From: Minisyncoccota bacterium
Lineage (GTDB): Bacteria; Patescibacteriota; Minisyncoccia; Phycocordibacterales; UBA6065
Assembly (NCBI GenBank): GCA_036400935.1
Contig: DASWWW010000002.1
Location: forward strand, 201,529-265,528
DNA length: 64,000 nt
Reading direction: 5' to 3'
The position numbers and the translations under genes are program-made. Of the stretch, positions 14,360 to 29,546 are shown piece by piece. The notes under the pieces were generated by a model, which was not told the origin of the DNA, made no database searches, and saw only the letters and a list, made by a program, of their open reading frames with translations. How positions within the stretch are numbered: the first letter of the stretch is position 1; every line of letters starts with the position of its first letter.

Positions 14360-14368
14360 ACCCTAAGA

Positions 14369-15810: not shown

Positions 15811-16659
15811 TCAGAACCACTTTTCCCTGGGGAGGGTCGCCTCAAGCTGCTTGAAGTACTGGTAGCTCCCTGCCAAGTCGATGATCGAGCATTTGAGGCC
15901 CGACCATGCAGCGATCTTCTCGATATCGGCGGCGTGCCGCGCGCCGTAGCAGATCGCCGCGGCCTTGCCCGGATTTTTTTCGAGGCGCTCGATCACGAGC
16001 ATCAGGGCAACGTAGCTCCTGACCTGGCTTAGCGCGTCCTCAAGCTCCAGCGCTGCCGGAAGCACGCCCATCTGCCTGAGCGCCTCCTTGTTCTGGACGA
16101 GGGCCACGACCATGCCGCCATGGAGGTCGGCCAAAGCATCGAGCTCGCCGCCAAGGGAATCAGCGGGAATTCCCCTCAGGTCTCCCCACTGCCTCTTTAC
16201 GCCAGCCTCATCCGCCGGACCGACAATGCCTTCGAAGCATACGAATCCGTAAGGATGGGAGGTGAGGCGCTCCGAAAGCTCTTTCGTGACCGCCTCGATG
16301 ACCGCAACCGTTTCCGGCGAATCCTTTTCGAGGTACTCGGACCCCTTGTGCGTCGCGGCCAGAAAGTCCACCCTGTGCCTCGCGAGGATCTGCCGGTCCA
16401 GATGCTTGATAAACAGGAATTGCAGCTTGGGGAGCAGTTCCATGACTTTCGCCGACAGCTTTACGGACTCGCCCCCAAAGGCTATCTGCACCAAGGAGTC
16501 CTCGATCCTCTCGAGCTGCCGTAAGGCAGGATTCGAGAAGTCGATCCGAGTGACGACGAACTGCGCCGGCACGGCTTTCTGCTCTTCCTTCATCTTGACG
16601 AAGAAGGCGCAGATACCGAACATGATCACCAGGCCCACTAGCGTGATTAACGTCCTCAT
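15811..16659 (-). CDS. hypothetical membrane-anchored protein
   Basis: 282 aa; single N-terminal TM helix then soluble domain; no motif recognised. Confidence 0.5.
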   Translation of the reverse strand: MRTLITLVGLVIMFGICAFFVKMKEEQKAVPAQFVVTRIDFSNPALRQLERIEDSLVQIAFGGESVKLSAKVMELLPKLQFLFIKHLDRQILARHRVDFLAATHKGSEYLEKDSPETVAVIEAVTKELSERLTSHPYGFVCFEGIVGPADEAGVKRQWGDLRGIPADSLGGELDALADLHGGMVVALVQNKEALRQMGVLPAALELEDALSQVRSYVALMLVIERLEKNPGKAAAICYGARHAADIEKIAAWSGLKCSIIDLAGSYQYFKQLEATLPREKWF

Positions 16660-16781: not shown

Positions 16782-17495
16782 TTATTTGAGCTCGATCGAG
16801 TTAATTACGACCGGCTTCAAAGGCCTGTCCGCCTCGCCCGTCTCTACCCCGTTGATGGCCATGACGACCTCGGCGCCGGCGGTTACGCGGCCGAATACGG
16901 TGTGCTTTGAGTCGAGGAAATTGTTCGCCGCCACGTTGATGAAGAACTGGCTGCCGTTCGTGTTCGGGCCGGCATTAGCCATAGAGATGGTTCCAGCGTC
17001 GTTCTTGTTGTCGGCAGTGATCTCGTCGGCGAACTTGTATCCTGGACCGCCCGTTCCCCAGTACGCCATCTTCGAGTCATCCTTGGTAAGAGGGTCTCCG
17101 CCCTGGTTCATGAAGCCCTCGATCACCCGGTGGAATTTCGTGCCGTTGTAGAAGCCCTCCTTGGCGAGCTTCACGAAATTGGCAACGGTATTAGGCGTCG
17201 ACTTCGAGAACTCGATCGTAATGTCGCCCATGTTTGTGTGAAGTATTGCGTTCATGATGTTTTGATTATTATTCTGCCCTGCGCCCGTCGGAAGCTGCGG
17301 TCCCTGTGCCTCTCCTCCTTGCCCATTTGCGCCCTGCGCTCCGCCCGTCTGGGACGTCGAGGTGCTAAAGAGGTCGGCGGCCGTCTCGGGCGCGTCCTTC
17401 AATACGGATACGCCATTGCCGCTGCCGGCAAAATACCAGATAAGACCGCCGACTATGATAAGGGCGATAAGCCCGGGAAACCAGATGCGTTTCAT
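16782..17495 (-). CDS. peptidyl-prolyl cis-trans isomerase, cyclophilin type, membrane-anchored
   Basis: 237 aa; N-terminal TM + Gly/Gln-rich linker; cyclophilin core (HTNMGDITIEF...FHRVIEGFMNQGGDP...SMANAGPNTNGSQFFI). Confidence 0.85.
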   Translation of the reverse strand: MKRIWFPGLIALIIVGGLIWYFAGSGNGVSVLKDAPETAADLFSTSTSQTGGAQGANGQGGEAQGPQLPTGAGQNNNQNIMNAILHTNMGDITIEFSKSTPNTVANFVKLAKEGFYNGTKFHRVIEGFMNQGGDPLTKDDSKMAYWGTGGPGYKFADEITADNKNDAGTISMANAGPNTNGSQFFINVAANNFLDSKHTVFGRVTAGAEVVMAINGVETGEADRPLKPVVINSIELK

Positions 17496-17534
17496 ATAAA
17501 TTATATTATCACAATCGTCAGCACACTTAATACG

Positions 17535-20333
17535 CTACCACTCGAATTTCTCAACAATCCCCTCAATAGCGCTCTTTATGCGGGTAACGATACCTCTTCG
17601 CTCAAGTATCCTTGGTTGCTCTGGAAGCAGATCAGCAACATCCTGTTCTCGAGGCAGCTTCTGGGTATAGAGGTAATCACCAATCAATCCTTCGATCTTA
17701 TCCACTGGAATCTTCTCATCGTGCGCCAATTGCTTTAGCACTTCAGATCGCTTACTCTGCCAGAATTCGCCGAATGCCTTTTCTACGTCGTCTGCCTTGT
17801 GGAGCTTGGGCAAGCTCTCTTCGATGAACTTCTTGACCAAGTCCTTCTTCTTGCGAAGTTGCATATCCCTATCAAAGATGTGCAACACCTCTTCAGTCTT
17901 TTTCTTTCGCACGGAGTCAGAGGTGATGTTCTTCAGTCCGGCAATAAGCAGGATGATGTAATCGAAATTAACGATGTCTCGGAGAGTTAGCTCAAGCTCG
18001 AAATCAATCTGGTCGAGGATAGACTCAGCGCCAGCATCCTTATTCCTACGCTCCTCATAGACGTCCAAGTACTTGCTCTGGTAGTCATAAAATTCCTGCT
18101 CGGTAATACCAACATCCTCAAACGAGAATTCAGCAAACGTCTCAAGTGATGACTTAATACGCAACAGGTCACGGAACGTCTTGATGAAGCCAGCTTTTTC
18201 TTCTTCGCTCTGTAATGCATCGATTGAAGCCAGTGTAGGAACTTTTTCCTTAAGCTCGTTCAGCTTGGCAGTAAACTCCTTCTTCTGATCCTCATAAGGC
18301 TTCTTGAATACTATTTCCTTTGCATTCTCATCACCGAATAGCGCCAACGCTGTGTCGGTAGCTTTCTTTAAGTTACGGAACGAGACGATATTGCCATGGG
18401 GCTTGTCCGAATTGAGAAGTCTGTTTGTTCGTGAGTACGCCTGAATAAGACCGTGGTAGCGGAGGTTCTTATCCACGTACAAGGTATTGAGTCGTGGGCT
18501 ATCAAAACCAGTAAGGAAGATGTTTACAACGATAACCAGATCAACCTCCTTGTTCTTAATGCGCTTCTGCAAATCTCGGTAGTAATCGTAAAAGCGATCC
18601 GTTGAGAAGTTTGTTGCATAAAGCTCGTTGTAATCCTTGATGCAGTCTTCTAGGAAATCGCGGGAGTGCTGATTGCCGGTCGTACCTTCGCCAGCAAAGA
18701 TATCGATATCGAGCATGTCGTTGCTCTCTTCCTCGTTTGCCTGATAGGTGAAGATGGTCGCTATCTTAAAGTCACTCGCTTTCTTGTTCTTGAATAGTGC
18801 GTAGTAGCGCTTAAGTACTTCAATGTTTGATACAGCAAAGAAGGCATTAAATTTGCCTGACTTCGTTTTACGCTTCCAGTCAGCAAGGATGTAGTCGGTA
18901 ATTTTATTCAAACGATCATCGCTTTCGAGTACCTCGCGCTTACCTACACCCTCGACAAGAGCTTCTGCGAAAATATCCGCATCCAGTGTGTCTGGCGACT
19001 TCTGTGTGTACTTGCCGACATACTCAACCGCAAAGCCGAGAACATTATTATCAGAAATAGCGTTCGTGATGATGTATTTGTGGAGACATGAGTCAAAGAC
19101 GTCTGCGGTAGTTACGCCGCCCACGTTGTTGTCAGCGAAGATGGGTGTACCAGTAAAACCAAAGAGCTGTGCCTTGTTGAAAAAGCCTTTAATGCGAGCG
19201 TGTGTCTGTCCAAACTGGCTGCGGTGACATTCGTCAAAGATGATCACCACCTTCTCGTCGGTGAGGTATGCAAACTTGCTGGAGTGGTTCTCGCGACCAA
19301 TGGCAATATCGAGCTTCTGAATGGTGGTGACGATGAGCTTTCGGTTTGTGTCAGCAAGCTGGGCTACTAGATTGCGAGTGCTGTCTGTGCCGTCCACAGA
19401 GCCGTCAGAGAAGGAGTTAAATTCCTTTGTGGTCTGGATATCGAGATCCTTTCGATCTACGACAAAAAGCACCTTCTTGACTTCAGCCATGCGGGACAGT
19501 ATCTGACTTGCCTTGAATGAGGTCAGGGTCTTTCCCGAACCAGTAGTGTGCCAGATATAACCGTTCTTGTCTGACTCTTTCACGCGCCCCTCAATAGTTT
19601 TTACAGCGTAGTACTGGTATGGGCGCAGCACCATCGGGATCTGTAGCGACTCAGCCAAGACGATGTATTCGGCGATCATCTTTGACACGGCGCATTTTTC
19701 CAAGAACGCATTCGCAAAGTCTTCAAGCTGAGTGATCTTGGTGTTGTTCTCATCAGTCCAATAGAAGGTCTGCTCAAAAGACTGGCGTGGATTGTTTGAG
19801 AAGTATTTTGTATTTACTCCATTTGAAATAACGAAGATCTGGATGTATTCAAAAAGTGTTCCAGTGAATGAATGCTTGTGGTAGCGCTGGATCTGGTTAA
19901 ACGCCTCTTTCATTTCCATACCACGACGCTTCAACTCAACTTGCACGAGAGGCAGACCGTTTATGAGAAGCGTCACGTCATAGCGGTTCTCATACCGGCC
20001 GGACTGTGTCAGCTGGTGAGTAACCTGATATTCGTTCTTGCACCACTGCTCCATATTGAAAAAGCGCACGTAGAAAGTACTTTCGTCGTCTCGTGCTAGG
20101 GCGTAGCGATCTCGGAGTGTTTTTGCCTTTTGGAACCGATCTCCTTTGTTGAGGTGGTTTAGAATGCGAGAAAACTCCTTCTCAGAAAAGGTGGTGCTAT
20201 TAAACTTCTCAAGCTGAGTCTGAAGGTTCTTAATCAGTGCGTTAGTGTCAGCCAAAACAACTGGTTCAAAACCCAGCCCTCCAAGCTGTTCTAGAAGCTC
20301 TTTTTCAAGTTGTTGTTCTGATTGATGGGTCAT
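17535..20333 (-). CDS. hsdR: type I restriction enzyme R subunit (HsdR)
   Basis: Track ORF 17535..20366; likely start ATG 20333 (MTHQSEQ) overlapping hsdS stop (ATGA). SF2 helicase motifs (TGSGKT, DECH-like FDECHRS), HsdR_N domain; AT-rich relative to flanks. Confidence 0.85.
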   Translation of the reverse strand: MTHQSEQQLEKELLEQLGGLGFEPVVLADTNALIKNLQTQLEKFNSTTFSEKEFSRILNHLNKGDRFQKAKTLRDRYALARDDESTFYVRFFNMEQWCKNEYQVTHQLTQSGRYENRYDVTLLINGLPLVQVELKRRGMEMKEAFNQIQRYHKHSFTGTLFEYIQIFVISNGVNTKYFSNNPRQSFEQTFYWTDENNTKITQLEDFANAFLEKCAVSKMIAEYIVLAESLQIPMVLRPYQYYAVKTIEGRVKESDKNGYIWHTTGSGKTLTSFKASQILSRMAEVKKVLFVVDRKDLDIQTTKEFNSFSDGSVDGTDSTRNLVAQLADTNRKLIVTTIQKLDIAIGRENHSSKFAYLTDEKVVIIFDECHRSQFGQTHARIKGFFNKAQLFGFTGTPIFADNNVGGVTTADVFDSCLHKYIITNAISDNNVLGFAVEYVGKYTQKSPDTLDADIFAEALVEGVGKREVLESDDRLNKITDYILADWKRKTKSGKFNAFFAVSNIEVLKRYYALFKNKKASDFKIATIFTYQANEEESNDMLDIDIFAGEGTTGNQHSRDFLEDCIKDYNELYATNFSTDRFYDYYRDLQKRIKNKEVDLVIVVNIFLTGFDSPRLNTLYVDKNLRYHGLIQAYSRTNRLLNSDKPHGNIVSFRNLKKATDTALALFGDENAKEIVFKKPYEDQKKEFTAKLNELKEKVPTLASIDALQSEEEKAGFIKTFRDLLRIKSSLETFAEFSFEDVGITEQEFYDYQSKYLDVYEERRNKDAGAESILDQIDFELELTLRDIVNFDYIILLIAGLKNITSDSVRKKKTEEVLHIFDRDMQLRKKKDLVKKFIEESLPKLHKADDVEKAFGEFWQSKRSEVLKQLAHDEKIPVDKIEGLIGDYLYTQKLPREQDVADLLPEQPRILERRGIVTRIKSAIEGIVEKFEW

Positions 20334-21559
20334 ATAAATAATTTTTGTAGCAAACCTCTTTTCCAAGTTTCTACTTTTCTAATTTGCAATTCTTTTGACT
20401 CGATCATTGCGTCGAGGGAAACGAGAAAATCTGCAATTTTGTTCTGCTCCTGTATGGAAGGAAGTTGCACTTTGGCTTCAGAAAAATATTTAAAACTTAT
20501 CATTTTTCCATCTCTTATGCCTTCAAGTTTGCTAATTAATCTTCCAATGTAAGCAGGGCTCTTAAAAAGGAATTTAAAGAAGTACGTATTTACATCGATT
20601 TTTGACCTTAGAACGATATAGGCTGGGCTGCACAACCCATCATATTCGGAGTATTCTATGCCTCCCTGAAACGATCTCAGGCTAATTATAAAATCTCCCT
20701 TTCTAACAACTTTATAGCCAGCAATGCCTTTTTCTGAAACTTGAACTTTGTAATTTATCAAGTAACGAGGGACTGCACCCTGATCCTGTGTTATGGCCAA
20801 AATTGGTAAATCCTTTTGTGGGTTCTTATTAGATATATTTTCAAACACTTCGTCACCATTTACCACAGACCATTCGGGAAATTCTTTTCCGTTGTCATCT
20901 TGAAAGCGGATTTTTTGAGAAAAAATTTTCTGTACCACATCTTTTTTGTAGTTTTCTAACGAGGTTTTCTCCTTCTTCAATAGAGAAAGGTATTCAATAA
21001 CCACGTCCAAAAAGGAGCTGATCTTTCTCTGTTCATCTATTGCTGGAACATAGATCTTATCTTGCAGTACATGAGCGTTATTAATCTTCATGTCATTCTT
21101 CGCACCCTTTTTAACTAGCGGTCGAAGGTACCGATTTGTGTTGCTATCCAGAGAAAAATAGTAATCAAGAAAGCTACCATGCGCTTGATTCTCTATCACA
21201 CCGTAGACGGCGTAGAGCGTTGAAACTATTCCCGTTTTACCTTTATTTACCTTTATTACTCCATAAGGATTAGCCTTTAATGGGCTTTTTGTATAAACAA
21301 TGTCCCCCGTATCTACAACATGGTAGTTATGTACCGATTTTCCAGCATAAGAGCGACCTAAATGCTCAACCTGATTGACAACACCCACGTCACCCGAAAC
21401 TGAGAGTACATCGTCTTTGGTGTACTTAAGGTCACCATTGCGCTTCTTGGACTCCTTTAGTAATTCACTTAATTTCGTATTTTTCCAACCATCAGTAAAT
21501 TCACCGAAACGTAATTCGGGTACTTTTATTTTTTGTTCTTTTGAAATGATGGCAGGCAT
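20330..21559 (-). CDS. hsdS: type I restriction-modification specificity subunit (HsdS)
   Basis: 409 aa with two TRD-like halves separated by conserved coiled regions; between hsdM and hsdR. Confidence 0.8.
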   Translation of the reverse strand: MPAIISKEQKIKVPELRFGEFTDGWKNTKLSELLKESKKRNGDLKYTKDDVLSVSGDVGVVNQVEHLGRSYAGKSVHNYHVVDTGDIVYTKSPLKANPYGVIKVNKGKTGIVSTLYAVYGVIENQAHGSFLDYYFSLDSNTNRYLRPLVKKGAKNDMKINNAHVLQDKIYVPAIDEQRKISSFLDVVIEYLSLLKKEKTSLENYKKDVVQKIFSQKIRFQDDNGKEFPEWSVVNGDEVFENISNKNPQKDLPILAITQDQGAVPRYLINYKVQVSEKGIAGYKVVRKGDFIISLRSFQGGIEYSEYDGLCSPAYIVLRSKIDVNTYFFKFLFKSPAYIGRLISKLEGIRDGKMISFKYFSEAKVQLPSIQEQNKIADFLVSLDAMIESKELQIRKVETWKRGLLQKLFI

Positions 21560-21562
21560 GGC

Positions 21563-23140
21563 TTAGAAAGGTTTATCTATCTTCAGTTCATCACAAAACT
21601 CAGCAATTCTATTCTGCAAGTTAACTTCCACTTTTCTCATTTCCTTTAATTCCGAAGCGATCAAACCTATATCAATATTTTCTACTTCTTCAAAAGTATC
21701 AACATATCTTGGAATATTGAGGTTATATTCATTAGACTTTATTTCTTCGAGAGTGGCTCGATGGGAGTAGCGTTCAATTTCTTGTCTATTTTTGTATGTA
21801 TCAAAAATCTTTGAAATATTTGCATCACTTAAAACATTTTGACTCTTTCCCTTTATGAAATCCGATGACGCATCAATAAACAAAACATCATCGTCATCCT
21901 TACGACACTTCTTTAAGACCAAAATCATTGTAGGAATACCCGTGCCGTAAAATAAATCGGGTGGTAAACCTATAACAGCATCAAGGTAGTTTTGTTTTTC
22001 AATTATATATTGTCTTATCTGAGCCTCAGCGCCCGATCGGAACAAGGCGCCATGCGGTAATACAATCGCCATTGTCCCGTTATCAGCAAGGTGATAGAGC
22101 ATATGGGTAACAAAGGCATAATCTGCTGCACCTTTTGGAGCTAGTCTTCCATACTGAGAAAATCTATCGTCATGTACCAGTTGAGGGTCAGTATCACCCT
22201 TCCACTTCGCTGAAAAGGGCGGATTAGCCACCACAGCCTCGGCTTTGAGTTCTGGCAGTAGATCTTCAGTAAGAGTGTCTCCGTTTTTTATCTTAAAGTG
22301 GTCAAAGTGAACTCCGTGCAAAATCATATTCATACGACCAAGATTGTAGGTCGTGGGGTTGAGTTCCTGTCCAAAATAGCTAGTTACTTCGACATAGTCT
22401 TTAAGTCGAAGCAACAGAGATCCGGAACCACAAGTGGGGTCGTAAACGGTTTTGATACGTTTCTTTCCAACGGAAACTATTTGAGCTAGCAGGCGCGATA
22501 CCTGCGCTGGGGTGTAAAATTCGCCACCTTTCTTACCGGCTCCTGCAGCAAATTCGCCGATAAGATATTCGTAAGCGTCACCAAGCAGATCACTCTTTGA
22601 GTCTTCGAGTTTGAAATCAATGCCGTTAAGGTGCGCTAAGACTTCAACAATAACCGCATTCTTTTTCTGTTCGGTTGAACCGAGTTTAGAAGAAGTAAGG
22701 TCTACATCATCGAAAAGTCCCTTGAAGTCGTCCTCACTAGCAGTACCCATAGAGGTCTGCTCGATGGAGTTGAGTATGTTTTTAAGATCCTCCAAAATAA
22801 ACGACTCTTCTCCTTGGACGTTTCCTTTCCCCTTATTTACGAGATAAGAAAATAGTTGTGTCGGTTTAAGGAAGAAGCCAAGATGGTCAATACAACTTTC
22901 TCTAATATGCTCGATATATTCTTTACCTTCTTTTGATTTTTCTTTTATCTCAGCAAAACTAAAATCCTCTCTAGCCAGCAACTTTTCGTCTACATAGCGT
23001 TCCAGCTTTTCAGACAAGTATTTATAGAAAATAAAGCCGAGAATATAGTTCTTATATTCATCCGCGTTCATCTTGCCGCGTAGCACATTTGCTACCGCCC
23101 ACAATTGTTTTTCGAGTAATCGCTTTTGTTCGTCAGACAT
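21563..23140 (-). CDS. hsdM: type I restriction-modification N6-adenine DNA methyltransferase (HsdM)
   Basis: 525 aa; HsdM_N domain, AdoMet motif (DPTCGSGSLL) and catalytic NPPF (VVANPPFSAKW). Confidence 0.85.
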   Translation of the reverse strand: MSDEQKRLLEKQLWAVANVLRGKMNADEYKNYILGFIFYKYLSEKLERYVDEKLLAREDFSFAEIKEKSKEGKEYIEHIRESCIDHLGFFLKPTQLFSYLVNKGKGNVQGEESFILEDLKNILNSIEQTSMGTASEDDFKGLFDDVDLTSSKLGSTEQKKNAVIVEVLAHLNGIDFKLEDSKSDLLGDAYEYLIGEFAAGAGKKGGEFYTPAQVSRLLAQIVSVGKKRIKTVYDPTCGSGSLLLRLKDYVEVTSYFGQELNPTTYNLGRMNMILHGVHFDHFKIKNGDTLTEDLLPELKAEAVVANPPFSAKWKGDTDPQLVHDDRFSQYGRLAPKGAADYAFVTHMLYHLADNGTMAIVLPHGALFRSGAEAQIRQYIIEKQNYLDAVIGLPPDLFYGTGIPTMILVLKKCRKDDDDVLFIDASSDFIKGKSQNVLSDANISKIFDTYKNRQEIERYSHRATLEEIKSNEYNLNIPRYVDTFEEVENIDIGLIASELKEMRKVEVNLQNRIAEFCDELKIDKPF

Positions 23141-23141
23141 A

Positions 23142-23324
23142 TTATTTGGTGCTTGCCCGCTTAAGGAAGGCGTCGAACTCAGCCTTGTCTATTCTAAATT
23201 CCTTACCAATCTTATATGCCTTCAATTTACCCGCTTTGATATAGCGATAGATGGTCATTATGTTAACGCCCAATTTCTCCGCAAGATCCTGCGCTGTATA
23301 AAATTCCTTACCAGACATAGGCAA
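23142..23324 (-). CDS. helix-turn-helix DNA-binding protein (excisionase/MerR-like)
   Basis: 60 aa; YTAQDLAEKLGVNIMTIYRYIKAGKLKAYKIG; 1-nt spacer to hsdM start. Confidence 0.7.
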   Translation of the reverse strand: MPMSGKEFYTAQDLAEKLGVNIMTIYRYIKAGKLKAYKIGKEFRIDKAEFDAFLKRASTK

Positions 23325-23415
23325 AGTATACTTTACAATTCTTTACACAGCAAACGGAGTGTTGCCGACCTGTGGATACAAGCCCTTTCCAAGTTTGCCG
23401 TTATTTTGCCGTTTT

Positions 23416-23913
23416 TTATTCAGCCTTTCGGTAGATCTTCTTGCCGTCGAAGATAACCTCTTCAACTTTCCAAGCACCCATATCGTCTACGTCACCACCA
23501 GTAAAAATCATGATCGTACTCCAGTTGGAACGGATCATCGCACCATAGCTATTTTGACTATCTACACACGACACCACCTTCCATCGGTTATCTCCAAGAT
23601 CAGTTGCTATGCTAGAGCAAAAATCTGCGGTCGATGGCGACTCAAGAAGTTTCTCAATATAGAACTCGGAGAACGACCTAGCAGATAGTTCGTAACTATA
23701 TGCTGATGGTGGTTCTGGCACTCGAGGACTCGACGGAACTATTGCTGCCGTAAAGATGCTAGTAAAAATTCCTATGCCGAATAGTACAAATACTACTTTT
23801 ATTATTGGCGACATAGGCTGCGGCAATTTGCTTCCGCAATGCGAACACTTCTTTGCCTTAGGGTCTACTTCTGCCAGACACTGAGGACATTTCTTCGTTG
23901 GGGTTTTATCCAT
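23416..23913 (-). CDS. zinc-ribbon membrane protein (hypothetical)
   Basis: 165 aa; N-terminal CPQC...CSHC zinc ribbon, one TM helix, C-terminal extracytoplasmic domain. Confidence 0.5.
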   Translation of the reverse strand: MDKTPTKKCPQCLAEVDPKAKKCSHCGSKLPQPMSPIIKVVFVLFGIGIFTSIFTAAIVPSSPRVPEPPSAYSYELSARSFSEFYIEKLLESPSTADFCSSIATDLGDNRWKVVSCVDSQNSYGAMIRSNWSTIMIFTGGDVDDMGAWKVEEVIFDGKKIYRKAE

Positions 23914-24098
23914 AAATAATTAGCCAGCTAATAAGGCTGGCGTGGGGTTCAGTGTCTTCGTTGGGGTTTCCCGACCATATCCTTTGGAAAACAAAGGGGT
24001 TAGGTCGCTGGTCTTTCGGCCAGATATTCAATTGTGGCAACAGTGACAAAAACCACTGCTGTAGTCCTATTTTAGCTTAAAAGAAGGCTTTTGATAAG

Positions 24099-26810
24099 TT
24101 ACGGAGCGAGTCTTGACGATAGAAGCCCCACATCTTCAGTACTATCGACTTTTTGGAAACTAGCCAAGACTTTCTTTTCGGCTTCAGGCGTCCAATATAT
24201 TTTTAAGTTTTCTTTAGCTCTGGTTATAGCTGTATAGAAAATGTTATGTGTAATCATTTCTTCAGTCTCGCTCGTAATTACGATTTTCACCGAGCCATAC
24301 TCTAGGCCTTGAGCCTTGTGGATTGATACAGCATAAGCAACCTGAAATGGAACCACCGAGTCGAGTGGTTCGTCGTCTTCATCAGAGTCGCCTTGATCAT
24401 TAACTATAAAGCGCACTATCGAATTTCCGCTTTCTGCATTTCCAACCAGCTCAAAATCATAGCCCGATGCCTGCAGTTCGTTTATGGCCTTATCGATCTC
24501 AATATCAAATTGGATCTGATGTTCAGACTTATCTATGGCGACAATTCGACCCTTCAAGTTGTTATAGATTATGGGCGCGAACCTCTCCGTCTCGTTAAAC
24601 AAAATCGGATCACCAACTTTATAGGTCTGTATACCCCAATCAACTGCTGGACTGTTGTTGTTGCTCTGTAGGAATTTGTTGAGGTTATTTATGCCGTACA
24701 AACCATCGTAGTTTAAACAGAGAATTATTTCGTCATCTTTAAGATCTCCAAAAATAGACTCATTTAAAACAGTGGTGTACCCATTCCTCGTCATGATTTC
24801 CAAGATGTTGTCCTTAAGGTTTCTGACTCTGTTCCAAAATTCAATCAACTCTTCGTTAGTAGTTCTATAAGGGACTGTGAGTTCAGATACCGCAGTCTTT
24901 GGTACGAAGTATCGAGCGACGTTAAACCAGTTTCCAAATATTATTGACTCAATCTGGAATACATCACCCACCAGTATGAGAGTCTTAAATTTTGCCTTAT
25001 TCAGCACATCGATCATGTCAGTGTTACTCACCGTACTGCACTCATCGATAACAAGGAGGTCATAGTCAGTGTCAGTATTCCTGTCCGACAGAAATTTCGT
25101 AATAGTTTGGAACGTACAGTTAGCCGCAGTTACTTTTCTTTTCAGGTTATCAACCGCCGGATTAGTATTCGCTAAATAGAGCTTGTTGTTGTCGTTAAAG
25201 AAATTCGATATGTGGTTTATGAGCGTAGATTTTCCTGTTCCAGCAGCACCGTATATCAAAGCCACTTCGGAGTCAGCAAACAGTTGTCTCAAGATCCTTT
25301 CCTTGTCCTCGCAGTCGATCTGATAGGCGGTCGATTTTAGCCATGAGTCTACAGAGTTTGAGTAGTTGCTTATGCCACCACATGAAAGCTCCTTGAGCCT
25401 CTTGATGATATCTAAGGTGTCTTTCTCATAACCATTTATGTAAATAAAATCCTTAAAGTTCTCCAACTTGCGATGATTGTGCTTGGGAAGATACAGCTCA
25501 CCATTGTAGGTCGTCATCAATGACTCAACCTCTTCTTTAGTTTTAGATAAATCGCTCAGGGGCGTATACAGTTTTCCTTTGTTTTCAGTATTGTTCCTTA
25601 TCAATCTTGCAAAAAGTTCATGCTTTCGATCAGTGGCATCAATACACTCGAAAACATCCGATATCTTCGGATTGTGTCCTATCAACGAGGAATTGAAGGG
25701 CATCTTATCGAACGGCTTACAGCCAAGGTTGAAATTTAAATCATTTCGAAGTTTATAGCCGTTATAGCGGCAACGCTGCATTTTTATAATCCTATTGTTC
25801 AAGGAACGAAGTAGGTATCTCACTACATTTGTACCGACTTCGTTGTTTTTGATCAGAGATTTTGCTTTATCCAAGACAGGTAGAAAATTCACCGCCTGTA
25901 CACCTTGGATAATACGGATTTTTGCGGCGTCATAGTACTCATCTGAGAGATCGATAAGTTCAACAAGACTCAAATCAGTCTCTGTTAAGAAACTCATCAG
26001 GTTTTTATACTCGGCATGTGTTGTTTGAATATTTATGTCCTCATCTAAAATACGAGCAAAGTTGTTAAGCTCGCAAGGTCGTATTGAAACCTCCCATTTA
26101 TCAATAATTTGAATGGGCATTTTTTTGCCCAAGACCTCAATGTCGTCGTGGATTATCGAAAACTTAACAGCGTAATTGTCTGAAATATCTAGCTTGGTAA
26201 AAGCGATGACACGATCAAACTTACCAACCCTTGCACTCGCAATTGTAAAAGTGACTTCGTAATATATCTCGTGGTTAACAAAAAATGGCTTGATCTTCTG
26301 GATGTAGTACCGATCCTTGTAAGAACTTACTTTTCTTGCCTTTGTTGGGTGTTCGATCTGCTCAACTATCTTTGCGTAATATTCCTGCAACGCAGGGTCG
26401 GTATTGATAGGAAATTTATCAATATTACCTAAAACCTCTAGACCATAGGTGTGCTTCAGGCGCGATTTGATCCTGAGCAGATACTCGTAATACTTCAGCA
26501 TCAAACGTTCAGAATTTTCTTCGCTTTGCGTATAGTGCGAAGCAACACCTTGCAGAAAGTTGTGAAATCTTCTCAAAAACCCCAGCTTCCCACTCGGCTG
26601 CAATTTATTTGGGGCATTTATTAATCCATCCGGTGTAATCTCAACATCTTGGCCGTTAGCTCCTTCTTTTAGGGCTATATGCTCAACAAAGTTTCTGAGC
26701 TGGGAGAGAATGTTCTGCGACAAAAGACCTCTTTCAGAGGCATGGAATTTATCGATATTTTTACAGATGGCTGTATTGATAGTAAGTATCGCATCGTCGA
26801 TCTTGCTCAT
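24099..26810 (-). CDS. SF1 RecD/TraA-like DNA helicase with ~490-aa uncharacterised N-terminal region
   Basis: 903 aa; Walker A LIYGAAGTGKSTL (~res 500), Walker B LLVIDECS, C-terminal UvrD_C_2-like motif VSIHKAQGLEYGSVKIV...FYTAITRAKENLKIY; N-terminal half has no recognisable motif; very AT-rich. Confidence 0.75.
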   Translation of the reverse strand: MSKIDDAILTINTAICKNIDKFHASERGLLSQNILSQLRNFVEHIALKEGANGQDVEITPDGLINAPNKLQPSGKLGFLRRFHNFLQGVASHYTQSEENSERLMLKYYEYLLRIKSRLKHTYGLEVLGNIDKFPINTDPALQEYYAKIVEQIEHPTKARKVSSYKDRYYIQKIKPFFVNHEIYYEVTFTIASARVGKFDRVIAFTKLDISDNYAVKFSIIHDDIEVLGKKMPIQIIDKWEVSIRPCELNNFARILDEDINIQTTHAEYKNLMSFLTETDLSLVELIDLSDEYYDAAKIRIIQGVQAVNFLPVLDKAKSLIKNNEVGTNVVRYLLRSLNNRIIKMQRCRYNGYKLRNDLNFNLGCKPFDKMPFNSSLIGHNPKISDVFECIDATDRKHELFARLIRNNTENKGKLYTPLSDLSKTKEEVESLMTTYNGELYLPKHNHRKLENFKDFIYINGYEKDTLDIIKRLKELSCGGISNYSNSVDSWLKSTAYQIDCEDKERILRQLFADSEVALIYGAAGTGKSTLINHISNFFNDNNKLYLANTNPAVDNLKRKVTAANCTFQTITKFLSDRNTDTDYDLLVIDECSTVSNTDMIDVLNKAKFKTLILVGDVFQIESIIFGNWFNVARYFVPKTAVSELTVPYRTTNEELIEFWNRVRNLKDNILEIMTRNGYTTVLNESIFGDLKDDEIILCLNYDGLYGINNLNKFLQSNNNSPAVDWGIQTYKVGDPILFNETERFAPIIYNNLKGRIVAIDKSEHQIQFDIEIDKAINELQASGYDFELVGNAESGNSIVRFIVNDQGDSDEDDEPLDSVVPFQVAYAVSIHKAQGLEYGSVKIVITSETEEMITHNIFYTAITRAKENLKIYWTPEAEKKVLASFQKVDSTEDVGLLSSRLAP

Positions 26811-27010
26811 ACTTTACAATTATATACATTTTCCCTCTAAAAGCAGAGGGAGGCGCTTATTAACGAGAAAGCGCGATCAGGCCGTTGATCGTATTGAAAT
26901 GGTACTGCGCATCGGGGTAAATAGTAGACCATTCGTAGGTTCGAAATGCGTCCCTCCATGCGAGCTATCTCACTCGCAGAATTCCGAATCTATAATCACC
27001 GAAGAAGCAG

Positions 27011-27436
27011 TCAGTAGTTATCAGTCAAACAGCGCAAAATCCTCCCCAAGACCCTCTCCGGCCTCTTCTTCAAATCATGCTCCCAGATGCGCACGACTTT
27101 CCAGCCCATGCGGCGCAGGGCCCTGTTGTTGCGGATATCGCGGCGCATATTGGCCTGAATCTTTGGCAGCCAGTACTTTTTGGACAGCTTGCTCTGCCCT
27201 TTCCGGAGCTTGTACCCATGCCAGAAATCGCCGTCGACGAACACGGCCAGGCGCCTCTGTACGAAAACAATGTCGGGACTGCCGGGAATCTTGCGATAGT
27301 GCAGACGGTACCTGTAGCCGAGCGGATAGAGCGCCGCGCTGACGAGCTTGCGCAGGGCGATCTCGGGCTTCGTATTCTTGGACCGGATCGCGGCCATGAC
27401 CAGGCTGCGCTTTTCCTTTGTAAAAATGTCGACCAT
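27011..27436 (-). CDS. vsr: very short patch repair endonuclease (Vsr)
   Basis: 141 aa; KPEIALRKLVSAALYPLGYRYRLH...PDIVFVQRRLAVFVDGDFWHG...VVRIWEHD typical Vsr motifs. Confidence 0.8.
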   Translation of the reverse strand: MVDIFTKEKRSLVMAAIRSKNTKPEIALRKLVSAALYPLGYRYRLHYRKIPGSPDIVFVQRRLAVFVDGDFWHGYKLRKGQSKLSKKYWLPKIQANMRRDIRNNRALRRMGWKVVRIWEHDLKKRPERVLGRILRCLTDNY

Positions 27437-27451: not shown

Positions 27452-27934
27452 CTAATTGAACATCATCTTTGCCCCGCCTTTTACGTCGAGGATGAGCTGC
27501 CCTCGCCCGTTGAACTGGTATGCGGTAGCGGATTGGAGCAAGTCCTTGAAGGCGGCCTCGTGCGAGCCTCCGCAGGCCATCTCGGTCGAGACAATCGGGC
27601 TAAGTGAGATCGCGCCGCCGATTCCCGTGTCAGTCGACGTGTACGTGCCCGAACCGCTGTTGCAATCGGTCCAGATAACGAACGTACCGTCAGTATTGAG
27701 CGCGAGCGAGAACTTGCCCGCCGGATTCCTCGAATCTATCCATCGCCACACGGTCATATCGAGAGCCATGCGATTCGGATCGGCCTCGCCGTCGAGATTC
27801 TCGCCGATAGGCGCAGGCGGGACGGGCTTTGCGCAGCATGTATGGAACGTCAGCCCGTTATATACATATATAGAAAGCGACACGAACACCAAGACGCCGA
27901 GAGTGATGAGAAACTTTTTGGTAGATTTTTTCAT
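27452..27934 (-). CDS. META/HslJ-domain (DUF306) lipoprotein-like protein
   Basis: 160 aa; signal/TM; MACGGSHEAAFKDLLQSATAYQFNGRGQLIL typical META domain. Confidence 0.7.
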   Translation of the reverse strand: MKKSTKKFLITLGVLVFVSLSIYVYNGLTFHTCCAKPVPPAPIGENLDGEADPNRMALDMTVWRWIDSRNPAGKFSLALNTDGTFVIWTDCNSGSGTYTSTDTGIGGAISLSPIVSTEMACGGSHEAAFKDLLQSATAYQFNGRGQLILDVKGGAKMMFN

Positions 27935-27937: not shown

Positions 27938-28993
27938 TTATTGCAACGGCACGAACCCGAACAAGCGCAAAAAGAATGCCATCGGATAGTCGTACCAGCG
28001 GAGCTTGCCGCCGCGGTCGCTCTGGGCCTTGGACTTTTCGAAGGCAACGCCCTCGGCGCGCCAGCCGGCGATGATCTCGGAGAGGTCCTTTACCATTTCC
28101 GGATCATGGAAGAAGATGCCGCCCTCGATATTGAAATTGAATGACAGGAGGTCGAGATTCTGCGAGCCGATGATGCCCTCCTTGCCGTCGACGAGCATGG
28201 CCTTTGAGTGATTCATGCCCGGGGTCTGGAGGATGGTCGCGCCGGACGATGCGAGGCTCGCCGCATACGACCTGTTAATGCCGTTTACAAAGAAATAGTC
28301 GGTAGCCTCGGGCAAGAGGATCTCTACGCGCACGCCTCGCAGGATAGCCTGATGGATATGGGCGATGAACCAACGCGGCGGAAAGAGGTACGGCGTGACG
28401 AAGACGATCGACTCGCGGGCGCGGTCGAGGCGCTCGATGTAGTACTTGCGGAAAAGGTGCCTGCGGCGGCCGATGCCGTGGTCTACGAACCAGAGGCTTG
28501 CCCGCCGCAGGGGGTTTTCAGGGATGACGGCCTCGACGAACTGCGACTTGCCGCCGAGCTTGCGGTACACGCGGGCAAACGACCGGACGACCGATTCCAC
28601 GACCGGTCCCTGGACCTGCGCCTGCAGGTCTCGCCAGGTGGCGTATTTCGCGCCGACGTTGACGCCGCCGATAAAGGCAACTTTCTCGTCGATGATCAGG
28701 ACTTTGCGATGGAGGCGCGAGAAGAAGAAGCTGCAAAACAACACTTCCCCACCCGCAGCACGAATACGGCCGACAGCGTCGCTCAGGAAATTGTAGCTGC
28801 CCACCACGTCGAGGATGACGATCGTGCGCACGCCGCGCTTTGCCGCAGCCTCGAGAGCGTCAAAGAATTCGCGGCCGCGCGCATCGTCGTCGAGGATATA
28901 CATCTCGAGGTATATGCTCTTGTTGGCGCCGTGTATCGCTGCCAGCATGCCCTCCCAAGCCTTCTCCGAGCTGCTAAAGATGCGGTATTTCAT
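27938..28993 (-). CDS. phospholipase D-family protein (two HKD motifs; ClsB/cardiolipin-synthase-like)
   Basis: 351 aa; HKD motifs HRKVLIIDEKVAFIGGVN and HSKAMLVDGKEGIIGSQN. Confidence 0.75.
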   Translation of the reverse strand: MKYRIFSSSEKAWEGMLAAIHGANKSIYLEMYILDDDARGREFFDALEAAAKRGVRTIVILDVVGSYNFLSDAVGRIRAAGGEVLFCSFFFSRLHRKVLIIDEKVAFIGGVNVGAKYATWRDLQAQVQGPVVESVVRSFARVYRKLGGKSQFVEAVIPENPLRRASLWFVDHGIGRRRHLFRKYYIERLDRARESIVFVTPYLFPPRWFIAHIHQAILRGVRVEILLPEATDYFFVNGINRSYAASLASSGATILQTPGMNHSKAMLVDGKEGIIGSQNLDLLSFNFNIEGGIFFHDPEMVKDLSEIIAGWRAEGVAFEKSKAQSDRGGKLRWYDYPMAFFLRLFGFVPLQ

Positions 28994-29105: not shown

Positions 29106-29546
29106 TCAGGCTTTGGGGAAACCCACCGATCCAGGATGAGAATCCTGGTGATGATCGCAGAGCTCGAGCAATGCCTCGAGCTTTTGCTTTACAGAAACAA
29201 ATTGACCGCCCTCAAGAGCTCCCACTCTTCTTTGAAACCTATTCGAGGAGAACATCCTTACCTGATACAAAAGAGCATACCGAAGTTCGCCGTTAACCAA
29301 AATCTCAGAAAACCACGACCCATCCTTTCTCTGAGTTGAAATAGGAATACCCACGTAACTCGATCGTGACAGTTTCCTCAACACTAAAACCGGCCGATTA
29401 AACGTGCCCCCTTTACCACATGATTCGTTCCCGATATTTATACCGACGGAACACCACCAAATTTCCCCTTCTTTAAAGAAGACCTCGATCGACTTGCTCT
29501 CAATTGCCTTCTTCTGCTCGTTCCATGCATCAAAATTCTTTTCCAT
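29106..29546 (-). CDS. PemK/MazF-like toxin-fold protein (solo)
   Basis: 146 aa; GEIWWCSVG...GNESCGKGGTFNRPVLVL...YVGIPISTQ matches MazF/PemK family signature; no small antitoxin ORF evident upstream. Confidence 0.5.
   Translation of the reverse strand: MEKNFDAWNEQKKAIESKSIEVFFKEGEIWWCSVGINIGNESCGKGGTFNRPVLVLRKLSRSSYVGIPISTQRKDGSWFSEILVNGELRYALLYQVRMFSSNRFQRRVGALEGGQFVSVKQKLEALLELCDHHQDSHPGSVGFPKA

What the first reader, a model, noticed from the sequence alone, without database searches (positions are those of the whole stretch)
17535..27436. AT-rich horizontally acquired defence island: type I RM, zinc-ribbon membrane protein, large helicase, orphan vsr
From hsdR through the 903-aa helicase the DNA is visibly much more AT-rich than the ~60 %-GC flanks (by eye; not computed). 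The island carries:
- a complete HTH–hsdM–hsdS–hsdR operon with overlapping start and stop codons;
- a zinc-ribbon membrane protein;
- a helicase with a novel N-terminus;
- a Vsr endonuclease with no Dcm partner.
Compositional discontinuity together with clustering of defence genes indicates a mobile defence island.
Basis: partly seen in the sequence, partly recalled or inferred. Interest (0 to 1): 0.6.

Follow-up and report, generated by a model that had tools for sequence, protein, structure and literature searches.

The report
Acquired defence island in CPR bacterium
A 9.4-kb AT-rich block carrying a type I restriction system and an untested candidate anti-phage helicase was horizontally inserted into a variable "defence slot" of an uncultured Paceibacterota (CPR) genome; it is a real but fairly ordinary example of a known kind of feature.

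Summary
Window 17517-26965 has GC 0.42 against 0.54 elsewhere (z -4 to -6). Its tetranucleotide signature is uncorrelated with the host, and its GC3 is 0.36-0.56 against 0.65-0.83 for host genes.

The block encodes an intact EcoR124-type (type IC) HTH-hsdM-hsdS-hsdR operon, a Zn-ribbon membrane protein and a 903-aa SF1B helicase. The helicase is a full-length member of PADLOC candidate family PDC-S53, which is untested for defence.

Synteny supports acquisition. One relative has PLD next to the cyclophilin gene, with only a small DUF559 ORF between them. The closest relative has different defence cargo in the same slot (split type IIG-like RM, GmrSD, Shedu).

- Vsr is host-like in composition and lies outside the AT-rich block.
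- Flanks are about 54% GC, not 60%.
- Only the hsdS/hsdR junction overlaps.
- The helicase N-terminus is conserved in about 900 cluster representatives. It has no significant structural match beyond a probable OB-fold domain.
- The island itself has no integrase, tRNA or att repeats. Near-identical helicase modules elsewhere do sit beside large serine recombinases.

Verdict: a new member of a known kind, of moderate-to-low interest. One unexplained detail remains: the non-coding flanks of the helicase are unusually conserved.

The parts
17517..26965 (-). The AT-rich acquired block (island proper), about 9.4 kb, with all genes on the minus strand
   Evidence: GC is 0.420 against 0.540 for the rest, and the tetranucleotide correlation with the host is about 0. 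On the left, DNA homology to relatives L005/L006 resumes at 17496-17516. On the right, homology to the helicase module of L064/L065 starts at 26965.
17535..20333 (-). hsdR, type IC (EcoR124-like) restriction/translocase subunit. The ATG at 20333 is the likely start, and an upstream TTG at 20366 is also open.
   Evidence: Pfam HSDR_N, SWI2_SNF2/ResIII, T1R_D3-like and EcoR124_C. PADLOC REase_I 1.4e-298. EcoR124I/II HsdR structures 2w00/4be7 at E about 1e-169. ATGA overlap with the hsdS stop. More than 100 clusters at >=80% identity across CPR.
20330..21559 (-). hsdS specificity subunit with two target-recognition domains
   Evidence: Pfam Methylase_S with two stretches. PADLOC Specificity_I 5e-85. 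Lowest GC of the island (0.372, GC3 0.36).
21563..23140 (-). hsdM N6-adenine methyltransferase subunit
   Evidence: Pfam HsdM_N plus N6_Mtase 5.9e-108. PADLOC MTase_I 1.9e-167. NPPF catalytic motif at 22225.
23142..23324 (-). Small HTH_17 (excisionase/MerR-like) DNA-binding protein at the head of the RM operon. It is a probable transcriptional controller, and its ATG is at 23318.
   Evidence: Pfam HTH_17 5.3e-15. PADLOC mad1 4.4e-13. PHROG 66, excisionase/regulator. A 1-nt spacer separates it from hsdM. An orthologue at 88-92% identity heads a different RM module (N6_N4 MTase plus ResIII) in L066 and L083.
23323..23334 (-). Perfect 12-nt palindrome AAAGTATACTTT just 5' of the HTH start codon, a candidate operator
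   Evidence: Read directly from the sequence. Conserved, and extended to 14 nt, upstream of the HTH orthologue in L066. Any function is inferred.
23416..23913 (-). 165-aa protein with an N-terminal zinc ribbon, one predicted TM helix and a C-terminal domain of about 100 aa of unknown function
   Evidence: Weak Pfam zinc-ribbon hits, all below the gathering scores. No PADLOC hit. PHROG 13160, unknown function, 1.8e-8. A homologue at 59% identity follows the helicase in L064/L065, and a 32-44% relative is present in L066. It is absent next to the helicase in L067, L069 and the other loci.
23955..24098 (-). Conserved non-coding spacer between the helicase and the Zn-ribbon gene
   Evidence: 95.8% identical to L064 and 91% to L072, against 68% at helicase third codon positions. 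Parts of it recur at two other places in L066. Function unknown.
24099..26810 (-). 903-aa SF1B (RecD/Pif1/Dda-like) helicase with a family-specific N-terminal region of about 500 aa; a member of PADLOC candidate PDC-S53
   Evidence: PADLOC PDC-S53 at 1309.9 bits, residues 1-900 against model positions 1-893 of 900. Pfam AAA_30, Viral_helicase1 and UvrD_C_2. Foldseek hits to RecD/RecD2/Pif1/Dda with E down to 8e-17. Walker A GAAGTGKS and Walker B DECS are invariant in 29 homologues. The N-terminal model has pTM 0.66 and no PDB or viral hit at E<=1e-3. Only the domain at residues about 160-245 gives an OB-fold/SSB-like match.
26811..26965 (-). Conserved 155-nt non-coding element upstream of the helicase, marking the right edge of the acquired block. 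It ends in a TATAAT box 8 nt before the ATG.
   Evidence: 94.2% identical to L064 and 84% to L072, against 68% at third codon positions. Homology starts abruptly at the same base in three unrelated contexts. No Rfam hit at E<=10. MFE z-score about -2. Too few copies for covariation.
27011..27436 (-). Vsr-family endonuclease. It is adjacent to the AT-rich block but compositionally outside it, and is variable between relatives.
   Evidence: Pfam Vsr 1.8e-27. E. coli Vsr 1cw0 at 6.9e-16, with the Asp51 and His69 equivalents kept but the zinc ligands Cys66 and Cys117 replaced and Cys73 not conserved. GC 0.568 and GC3 0.80. Absent from L005 and L006. No C5-methyltransferase motifs in the window.
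27452..27934 (-). META-domain protein. It is the conserved right flank in L005 but absent in L006.
   Evidence: Pfam META 1.1e-12. 44% identity to L005:10-504, and no hit in L006.
16782..17495 (-). Cyclophilin-type PPIase, the conserved left flank of the slot
   Evidence: Pfam Pro_isomerase 6.8e-50. Orthologues at 78% in L005 and 64% in L006, with conserved downstream synteny. Its ATG lies 39 nt after the hsdR stop.
27938..28993 (-). PLD-family (cardiolipin-synthase-like) protein, the conserved right flank in L006
   Evidence: Pfam PLDc_2 2.6e-35. 66% identity to L006:8586-9620, which lies 380 nt from the L006 PPIase gene.

Best explanation
Window 17517-26965 is a composite anti-phage defence island. 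It was acquired horizontally, most likely from the pool of AT-rich CPR bacteria. It sits in a variable slot of a ~54%-GC Paceibacterota genome, between a cyclophilin gene and the PLD/META/Vsr genes. It has two modules.

Module 1 is a type IC (EcoR124-like) restriction-modification operon headed by a small HTH_17 protein. By established type I RM biology, HsdM2S methylates a bipartite target set by the two recognition domains of HsdS. HsdR then translocates and cuts unmethylated invading DNA. The HTH protein probably binds the palindrome in front of its own gene to time or limit expression of the operon. That role is inferred.

Module 2 is a PDC-S53 helicase, here followed by a Zn-ribbon membrane protein. 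PDC-S53 is an intact SF1B 5'-3' helicase/translocase with a probable OB-fold ssDNA-binding domain in a family-specific N-terminal region. It has no recognisable nuclease domain. The most likely role is a single-gene defence or exclusion factor that binds ssDNA or replication intermediates of an invader and disrupts them by ATP-driven translocation. That mechanism is inferred and untested.

The slot behaves as a defence hotspot whose cargo is exchanged between species. This copy has no recombinase, so it is either a decayed integrative element or arrived by recombination through the conserved flanks.

Shown: the composition shift, the gene identities, intact catalytic motifs, absence or replacement at the same site in relatives, and the recurrence of the modules on recombinase-bearing elements.
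Inferred: the donor, the route of insertion, regulation by the HTH protein, and the defence activity and mechanism of PDC-S53 and the Zn-ribbon protein.
For: Composition: GC 0.42 against 0.54, z -4 to -6, tetranucleotide r about 0 inside, GC3 0.36-0.56 against 0.65-0.83 for host genes.

Synteny:
- L006 keeps the order Pif1-DEAD-ABCF-hyp-MazF-PLD | PPIase-YgjP-S24, with only a 112-aa DUF559 ORF in the gap.
- L005 has META and PPIase flanking a different 9.4-kb low-GC block with Eco57I/type IIG-like RM parts, GmrSD (6e-190) and Shedu SduA.
- The left junction is sharp, within about 20-40 nt of the PPIase ATG.

The RM system is intact and of type IC. Its hsdR lineage is spread at >=80% identity across many CPR classes.

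Helicase:
- Full-length PDC-S53 match, SF1B fold, invariant motifs.
- OB-like domain hits in two libraries.
- Homologues occur next to RM systems, SIR2/UvrD-type defence genes and nucleases. They also occur on plasmids, in temperate phages and beside serine recombinases.

Other support:
- Genomes carrying close helicase homologues have GC 0.36-0.41, and there the module GC matches the host.
- Four assemblies are identical across both junctions.
- A genomic island with a full type I RM system has been described in another Patescibacteria genome (PMC12455944).
Against: - This copy has no integrase or recombinase, no adjacent tRNA, and no terminal direct or inverted repeats. The insertion route is therefore unknown.
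- Only three genomes share enough synteny to define the slot. L007 and L008 are too rearranged.
- PDC-S53 has never been tested, and no paper mentions it by name.
- Its frequent position next to replication or recombination genes on mobile elements also fits an element-maintenance role.
- The OB-fold assignment rests on matches with E 0.008-0.1, on a model of only moderate confidence.
- The Zn-ribbon protein accompanies the helicase only in the closest relatives.
- hsdR has intermediate GC (0.46), so the block may itself be a mosaic.
Confidence: 0.8

Rival explanations
1. The helicase (with or without the Zn-ribbon gene) is not a defence gene. It is a replication, maintenance or transfer helicase of a serine-recombinase integrative element, and what remains here is a decayed remnant of that element fused to an RM cassette.
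For: - Close homologues lie directly beside large serine recombinases (L064/65, L066, L078; also L073 and L074 within about 5 kb).
- The L066 element also carries an AAA_25 replicative-type ATPase and an HU-like gene.
- On the L. plantarum plasmid the gene follows the replication initiator.
- PHROGs files it with Dda-like helicases of phages.
- The conserved non-coding ends start at the same base in three contexts, which looks like an element terminus.
Against: - Solo copies occur in chromosomes without any mobility genes (L067).
- It is repeatedly next to RM, SIR2 and UvrD-type defence genes.
- PADLOC's curation excluded mobility-associated families when it defined the PDCs.
- In phage phi1605 and in the C. 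beijerinckii element it sits in accessory positions near RM or lysogeny genes.
- The two roles are not mutually exclusive.
Confidence: 0.2
2. The low GC is intrinsic to these gene families, or reflects local mutational bias, in a native and vertically inherited locus. On this view there was no acquisition.
For: RM specificity and methylase genes are often AT-rich. hsdR is only moderately deviant (GC 0.46, GC3 0.56).
Against: - The genes are absent from the same site in L006 and replaced by unrelated genes in L005.
- The tetranucleotide signature, not only GC, is unrelated to the host.
- The helicase module is 87-94% identical in DNA to copies in unrelated, AT-rich CPR genomes, where it matches the local composition.
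Confidence: 0.03
3. The discontinuity is an assembly or binning artefact that joins DNA from two organisms.
For: The source is a metagenome-assembled genome from a community containing many CPR bacteria.
Against: Contigs from four separate sequencing runs (Logan SRR11449179, SRR11449183, SRR11449184 and SRR11449188) are 100% identical to the window. Between them they span both junctions. The junctions fall in short intergenic spacers with intact genes on both sides.
Confidence: 0.02

Closest known systems
EcoR124I / type IC restriction-modification systems
   Same: HsdR aligns to EcoR124I/II HsdR at E about 1e-169 and carries the EcoR124_C domain. HsdM has an N6_Mtase domain with the NPPF motif. 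HsdS has two recognition domains. The genes form a tightly coupled hsdM-hsdS-hsdR operon.
   Different: The operon is headed by a small HTH_17 gene with a palindrome in front of it. It resides in a CPR genome. The recognition sequence is unknown.
PADLOC phage-defence candidate PDC-S53 (Payne et al., bioRxiv 10.1101/2024.01.29.577857)
   Same: End-to-end match to the family model (1309.9 bits). Like the founding members, it is associated with an RM locus.
   Different: Here it is adjacent to the type I RM operon, not embedded in it. The family is only a candidate, since no activity has been reported.
SF1B helicases RecD, RecD2, Pif1 and Dda
   Same: The C-terminal half shares their fold and motifs.
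   Different: It carries a unique N-terminal region of about 500 aa (helical bundle, OB-like barrel, helical domain). That region is found almost only in this ~900-aa architecture. There are no partner RecB/RecC genes.
Chromosomal defence hotspots flanked by core genes, such as the integration hotspots described for E. coli and the core defence hotspots of Pseudomonas aeruginosa
   Same: Conserved flanking genes with different defence cargo, or a nearly empty site, in different genomes.
   Different: Seen here in only three CPR genomes. No mobile-element markers are present in this copy. The population-level frequency is unknown.
Genomic island with a full type I RM system in Patescibacteria nzgw456 (PMC12455944)
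   Same: A horizontally acquired island carrying a complete type I RM system in a Patescibacteria genome.
   Different: A different genome, and the gene content beyond the RM system was not compared. The present island also carries PDC-S53 and the Zn-ribbon protein, and has a demonstrable alternative-cargo site.
E. coli Vsr/Dcm very-short-patch repair
   Same: The Vsr domain is present, with the catalytic Asp and His equivalents.
   Different: There is no Dcm in the window and the zinc ligands are not conserved. Three relatives also lack an adjacent Dcm, and two of those abut defence genes.

Membership tests
Type I RM, subtype IC (EcoR124 family) | HsdR with an N-terminal nuclease region, an SF2 motor and the EcoR124-type C-terminal domain | tested here: met
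   Pfam HSDR_N, SWI2_SNF2/ResIII, T1R_D3-like and EcoR124_C. PDB 2w00/4be7 at E about 1e-169.
Type I RM, subtype IC (EcoR124 family) | HsdM N6-adenine methyltransferase with the catalytic NPPF/Y motif, and HsdS with two target-recognition domains, in one operon with hsdR | tested here: met
   N6_Mtase 5.9e-108 and NPPF at 22225. Methylase_S with two stretches. Spacers of 1 nt and 3 nt plus a 4-nt overlap.
Type I RM, subtype IC (EcoR124 family) | Methylation of a bipartite target and ATP-dependent restriction of unmodified DNA | not testable with these tools
   Needs methylome data or biochemistry.
PADLOC PDC-S53 | Full-length match to the family HMM | tested here: met
   PDLC05035 at 1309.9 bits, residues 1-900 on model positions 1-893 of 900.
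PADLOC PDC-S53 | Anti-phage activity | not testable with these tools
   The family is one of 145 untested candidates, and no paper names it.
SF1B helicase (RecD/Pif1/Dda) | Two RecA-like domains with Walker A, Walker B and the later SF1 motifs | tested here: met
   Foldseek E 8e-17 to RecD and 1.8e-16 to RecD2. GAAGTGKS, DECS and HKAQG..E are invariant.
Integrative mobile element / classical genomic island | Atypical composition and absence from the same site in relatives | tested here: met
Integrative mobile element / classical genomic island | Own integrase or recombinase gene | tested here: not met
   None between 17.5 and 27 kb. No window ORF hit a recombinase family among those scanned. 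Related modules elsewhere do have serine recombinases.
Integrative mobile element / classical genomic island | Flanking att repeats or insertion next to a tRNA gene | tested here: not met
   The only tRNA is at 38108. No flanking repeats. The ends are no more similar than shuffled sequence.
Defence hotspot (variable slot between core genes) | Same flanking core genes with different defence cargo, or an empty site, in different genomes | tested here: met
   Window: type I RM plus PDC-S53. L005: type IIG-like RM, GmrSD and Shedu. L006: only a DUF559 ORF. Only three informative genomes.
Controller (C-protein)-regulated RM system | Small HTH regulator co-transcribed with the RM genes that binds a palindromic operator upstream of its own gene | tested here: inconclusive
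   The HTH_17 gene and a conserved 12-nt palindrome are present. HTH_17 is not the classical C-protein family, and binding is untested.
MADS (methylation-associated defence system) | Multi-gene set mad1 to mad8 | tested here: not met
   Only mad1-like (HTH, 4e-13) and mad2-like (HsdM, 1.4e-54) hits, both better explained by the type I RM system. The only other hit is a weak mad8 match of 0.0013 on the helicase P-loop.
Vsr (very-short-patch repair endonuclease) | Vsr domain with catalytic Asp51 and His69 equivalents | tested here: met
   Pfam 1.8e-27. Alignment to 1cw0.
Vsr (very-short-patch repair endonuclease) | Structural zinc site (Cys66, His71, Cys73, Cys117 in E. coli) | tested here: not met
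   Cys66 is Asp, Cys117 is His, and the Cys73 position is not Cys.
Vsr (very-short-patch repair endonuclease) | Partner cytosine-5 methyltransferase (Dcm) | tested here: not met
   No PCQ-type motif IV in any long ORF, and a single isolated ENV match, in the 64-kb window. No DNA_methylase hit among the proteins scanned. The rest of the genome was not searched.

The most novel reading that the evidence does not exclude
PDC-S53 may be a genuinely new helicase-based immunity factor. In this reading an OB-fold sensor is coupled to an SF1B motor with no nuclease. It would work together with the unusually conserved non-coding elements on either side of the gene, which could be an RNA partner or a cis-acting site. 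The PLD/META-to-cyclophilin interval would then be an integrase-free core defence hotspot of Paceibacterota, through which such cassettes are swapped by flank recombination.
Probability: 0.15. Interest if true: 0.6.

Novelty: new member of a known kind. Interest (0 to 1): 0.35.

Why it matters
CPR/Patescibacteria have tiny genomes and mostly lack CRISPR. How they resist phages, and how defence genes move among them, is therefore inferred largely from cases like this one.

This locus is a clean, junction-resolved example of three things:
- a defence slot whose cargo differs between related species;
- a type IC RM lineage and a PDC-S53 helicase module circulating widely among CPR bacteria;
- a compact helicase-(Zn-ribbon)-serine recombinase unit that may be the vehicle for that movement.

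It also gives a concrete, testable handle on an uncharacterised defence candidate, including Firmicutes homologues that could be tested in culture. None of this overturns current views.

Tried and rejected
- tRNA or att-based insertion. There is only one tRNA, 11 kb away. There are no flanking repeats, and the island ends are no more similar, direct or inverted, than shuffled sequence, here or in L064.
- Structured RNA upstream of the helicase. No Rfam hit at E<=10. MFE z-scores are only about -2 on either strand. Three diverse copies give no usable covariation, and the long stem is broken rather than compensated in other copies.
- Recombinase pseudogene remnant as the explanation for that element. 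The open frame resembles the called C-terminus of the L066 recombinase. However, the substitutions fall mainly at second codon positions, so it is not conserved as coding sequence.
- MADS system. Only the HTH and HsdM match mad models.
- L006 as a strictly empty site. It holds a 112-aa DUF559 ORF that is not orthologous to the window's Vsr.
- More distant relatives (L007, L008, L010, L012) as extra tests of the hotspot. Their gene order is not conserved.
- Promoter and terminator scan. Fewer promoter-like sites than in shuffles, so it was uninformative.
- Literature search for PDC-S53 by name. Nothing found.
- Sequence search of the Zn-ribbon protein against the PDB. Nothing meaningful.

Full report
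**Observation**

The compositional break is real and strong.
- In 1-kb and 300-nt profiles, GC falls from about 0.55-0.60 to 0.32-0.48 between about 17.5 and 26.9 kb.
- With the boundaries refined below, the block 17517-26965 has GC 0.420 and the rest of the window 0.540.
- Three-kb windows inside the block lie 4.2-5.9 standard deviations below the 50 windows outside it.
- Their tetranucleotide profiles have essentially zero correlation with the host background, against 0.8-0.9 elsewhere.
- Third-position GC separates the genes cleanly. Host genes run 0.65-0.83. The values are 0.36 for hsdS, 0.375 for hsdM, 0.42 for the Zn-ribbon gene, 0.456 for the helicase and 0.56 for hsdR.
- The flanks average 54% GC, not 60%.
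- Contigs from four separate sequencing runs are 100% identical to the window and between them span both junctions. This is not an assembly chimera.

**Gene content**

All genes are on the minus strand.
- HsdR has HSDR_N, the SF2 motor, T1R_D3-like and EcoR124_C domains. It matches PADLOC REase_I at 1.4e-298 and aligns to the EcoR124I/II HsdR structures at E about 1e-169. The system is type IC.
- HsdM has HsdM_N plus N6_Mtase with an NPPF motif. HsdS has two recognition domains.
- A 58-60-aa HTH_17 protein heads the operon.
- The genes are tightly coupled, but only hsdS/hsdR overlap (ATGA). The other two junctions have 1-nt and 3-nt spacers.
- A perfect 12-nt palindrome (AAAGTATACTTT, 23334-23323) lies just before the HTH start. 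It is conserved upstream of the HTH orthologue in another locus. This suggests autoregulation, which is untested.
- The 165-aa protein has an N-terminal zinc ribbon (weak Pfam hits below threshold), a hydrophobic segment and a C-terminal domain that matches only phage proteins of unknown function.

**The helicase**

- The 903-aa protein matches PADLOC model PDC-S53 from end to end (1309.9 bits).
[quoted passage not shown] They are explicitly untested, and no paper in the library mentions PDC-S53.
- The C-terminal half is an SF1B helicase. It has Pfam AAA_30, Viral_helicase1 and UvrD_C_2 domains, and Foldseek hits to RecD, RecD2, Pif1 and Dda with E down to 8e-17. Walker A, Walker B and later motifs are invariant in 29 homologues.
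- The N-terminal 500 residues were modelled separately (pTM 0.66). They give no PDB or viral match at E<=0.001.
- A β-domain of about 90-100 residues (roughly 160-245) repeatedly matches OB-fold ssDNA-binding proteins. Examples are Rim1 (TMt 0.60, rmsd 3.6 Å, prob 0.99), bacterial and phage SSBs, and baculovirus LEF-3. No nuclease domain was detected.
- The N-terminus is therefore uncharacterised but not new. Alone it finds 926 representatives of 50%-identity clusters (327 at E<=1e-30). Nearly all complete ones are about 900 aa with the region at the N-terminus.
- Full-length homologues at 60-94% identity occur in many CPR lineages, and at about 62% in Clostridium and Gracilibacillus.

**Acquisition**

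A scan of species-representative genomes with the flanking cyclophilin places the host in CPR/Patescibacteria (Paceibacterota/Parcubacteria-type). It yields two syntenic relatives.
- In L006 the order is Pif1-DEAD-ABC-F-hyp-MazF-PLD, then 380 nt, then PPIase-YgjP-...-S24. META, Vsr, the helicase, the Zn-ribbon gene, the HTH and hsdMSR are all missing. The gap holds only a 112-aa DUF559 ORF that is not orthologous to the window's Vsr.
- In L005, the closest relative (PPIase 78%, S24 95%), META and PPIase flank a different 9.4-kb block whose GC is also depressed. It encodes Eco57I/MmeI-type methyltransferase pieces and a T5orf172-ResIII protein, which together match a type IIG enzyme model. It also encodes a GmrSD type IV enzyme (PADLOC Orf5, 6e-190) and Shedu SduA.
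- DNA homology to both relatives resumes at window 17496-17516. That is 20-40 nt upstream of the PPIase ATG and just after the hsdR stop at 17535.

The site behaves as a defence hotspot with exchangeable cargo, although only three genomes are informative. More distant relatives have lost the gene order.

**Where the modules come from, and mobility**

- The island has no recombinase, no adjacent tRNA (the only one is at 38108) and no terminal repeats.
- The modules do recur on mobile elements elsewhere.
- In L064/L065 a 94%-identical helicase is followed by a Zn-ribbon homologue (59%) and then a 575-aa serine recombinase. DNA homology to the window runs from 26965 to 23955 at 87.6%. This fixes the right edge of the acquired block at 26965, exactly where GC switches.
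- In L066 and L083 a 91%/83-88% helicase is divergently paired with the same HTH (88-92%). There the HTH heads a different RM module (N6_N4 methylase plus ResIII). L066 also has two serine recombinases, an AAA_25 ATPase and an HU-like gene.
- Other homologues neighbour a serine recombinase (L078), an overlapping DNA methylase and an SNase (L073), an EEP-family nuclease (L080/81), SIR2-AAA and UvrD-type genes (L082), or nothing notable (L067).
- The family also occurs on plasmids of three phyla and in two temperate phages. In phage phi1605 it sits beside a type IIS RM pair and recombinases. In C. beijerinckii it is at the cargo end of an integrase-bearing, phage-like element.
- HsdR belongs to a lineage present at >=80% identity in more than 100 clusters across very different CPR classes.
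- Genomes carrying close helicase homologues have GC 0.36-0.41, and there the module matches its host. The likely donor pool is AT-rich CPR. The island stands out here only because this host is unusually GC-rich.

**Vsr**

- Vsr is a sequence-level family member (Pfam 1.8e-27; E. coli Vsr at 6.9e-16). It has the catalytic Asp and His equivalents but lacks the E. coli zinc ligands.
- It is host-like in composition (GC3 0.80), so it does not belong to the AT-rich acquisition. It is nevertheless absent from L005 and L006. It may be an older or compositionally matched addition to the same slot.
- No cytosine-5 methyltransferase motifs occur in any long ORF of the window. The rest of the genome was not searched.
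- Three relatives of this Vsr (63-69% identity) also lack an adjacent Dcm. Two of them abut defence-type genes: Shedu in one, and a reverse transcriptase plus a GIY-YIG/Schlafen-type helicase in the other.

**An unexplained detail**

- The non-coding DNA on both sides of the helicase is more conserved than the gene's neutral sites. Against L064, identity is 94.2% over the 155 nt upstream and 95.8% over 144 nt downstream. It is 86.8% for the coding sequence and 68% at third codon positions.
- The upstream element begins at the same base in three unrelated contexts (window, L064, L072). It ends in a TATAAT box 8 nt before the ATG.
- Its first 82 nt also occur in L066, inverted and on the other side of the helicase. 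There they overlap the annotated end of a serine recombinase gene. The substitution pattern argues against protein coding.
- It has no Rfam match, only modest folding z-scores and too few copies for covariation.
- It could be an element terminus or recombination site, a regulatory region or an RNA. I could not decide between these.

**Mechanism**

- For the RM module the mechanism is that of type I enzymes, from established knowledge. HsdM2S methylates a bipartite site. HsdR2M2S translocates on unmodified DNA and cuts at a distance. The HTH probably controls operon expression.
- For PDC-S53 the best-supported inference is a stand-alone ATP-driven 5'-3' translocase. It would be recruited through an OB-like ssDNA-binding domain to invader replication or recombination intermediates.
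- This is inferred from domain content and genomic company only. The rival view, that it serves the mobile element that carries it, cannot be excluded. I give that rival about 0.2.

**Comparison with known systems, and verdict**

- The closest knowns are EcoR124-type RM systems, the PADLOC PDC-S53 candidate, core-gene-flanked defence hotspots of Proteobacteria (recalled from the literature, not read here), and a published Patescibacteria genomic island with a full type I RM system (PMC12455944).
- This is a new member of a known kind. The corrections are that Vsr lies outside the block, mobility is not shown for this copy, and the helicase belongs to an existing but untested candidate family.
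- Interest is moderate-to-low at 0.35. The upside lies in PDC-S53 and its conserved flanks, and in the idea of an integrase-free CPR defence hotspot.

Noticed in passing
window 26811-26965 and 23955-24098: The non-coding flanks of the helicase are 94-96% identical to L064, against 68% at helicase third codon positions. The upstream element starts at the same base in three unrelated genomic contexts. It has no Rfam hit and no clear structure.
   Followed up: partly
window 23328-23347 and 26809-26828; palindrome at 23323-23334: An 18-of-20 identical motif (TGTAAAGAATTGTAAAGTAT / TGTATATAATTGTAAAGTAT) lies directly upstream of both the HTH and the helicase start codons. The HTH copy continues into a perfect 12-nt palindrome that is conserved in L066. 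This may indicate shared regulation. On its own, the match is only marginally beyond chance for a region of this size.
   Followed up: partly
L005:517-9959: In the closest relative the same slot holds a split Eco57I/type IIG-like RM system (222-aa and 501-aa methylase pieces plus an 834-aa T5orf172-ResIII protein), a GmrSD type IV enzyme and Shedu SduA. Two small unknown ORFs are also present.
   Followed up: yes
L006:9655-9993: The otherwise empty slot in L006 contains a 112-aa DUF559 (Vsr-fold superfamily) ORF. It is not orthologous to the window's Vsr. Small PD-(D/E)xK-type nucleases therefore occupy the slot edge in both genomes.
   Followed up: yes
window 15224-16659: Two genes with no family match (282 aa and 159 aa) lie between the cyclophilin and YgjP-like genes. 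Both are absent from L005 and L006, where other DNA or nothing sits. This is a second small variable spot on the other side of the cyclophilin gene.
   Followed up: partly
window 29106-29546 (and 29605-30126): A MazF/PemK-like toxin gene sits in a small AT-rich patch (GC 0.46), next to an unannotated 173-aa ORF. The toxin is conserved at the same place in L006 (64% identity), so it is not a recent arrival.
   Followed up: partly
window 17535-20333: hsdR has clearly higher GC (0.46, GC3 0.56) than hsdS and hsdM (0.37-0.40, GC3 0.36-0.375). This could reflect a mosaic origin of the operon or stronger constraint on the highly conserved hsdR.
   Followed up: no
L090, L091, L092 (relatives of the window's Vsr): Vsr relatives at 63-69% identity have no adjacent cytosine methylase. 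One is in tandem with Shedu SduA. Another follows a reverse transcriptase, a MazG-like gene and a GIY-YIG/Schlafen-helicase/S24 fusion protein.
   Followed up: partly
L066:10770-10851 and L066:1-1467, 10754-12469: The element in L066 has two different serine recombinases. The helicase is inverted relative to the conserved 82-nt element, compared with the arrangement in the window, L064 and L072. This hints at rearrangement by recombinase action.
   Followed up: partly
window 38108-42000: A milder compositional dip starts just after the only tRNA gene (tRNA-Gln, 38108-38179). At 39-42 kb, GC is 0.49 (z -2.1) and the tetranucleotide r is 0.57. It may be a second, tRNA-adjacent variable region.
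   Followed up: no
window 13259-15177 and 34346-36016: Several DNA-metabolism genes lie nearby in host-composition DNA. These are a LexA-like S24 peptidase, a small GIY-YIG nuclease (14369-14623) overlapping a YgjP-like metallopeptidase gene, and a Pif1 helicase fused to an HTH_40 domain. All are conserved in the relatives.
   Followed up: no
window 1451-5179 and 52873-55275: Two very large secreted or surface-type proteins are encoded here. One has 1242 aa with glycine-rich, PKD and peptidoglycan-binding domains. The other has 800 aa with C-type lectin, Big_5 and peptidoglycan-binding domains. The first gives a local tetranucleotide anomaly without any GC change.
   Followed up: no
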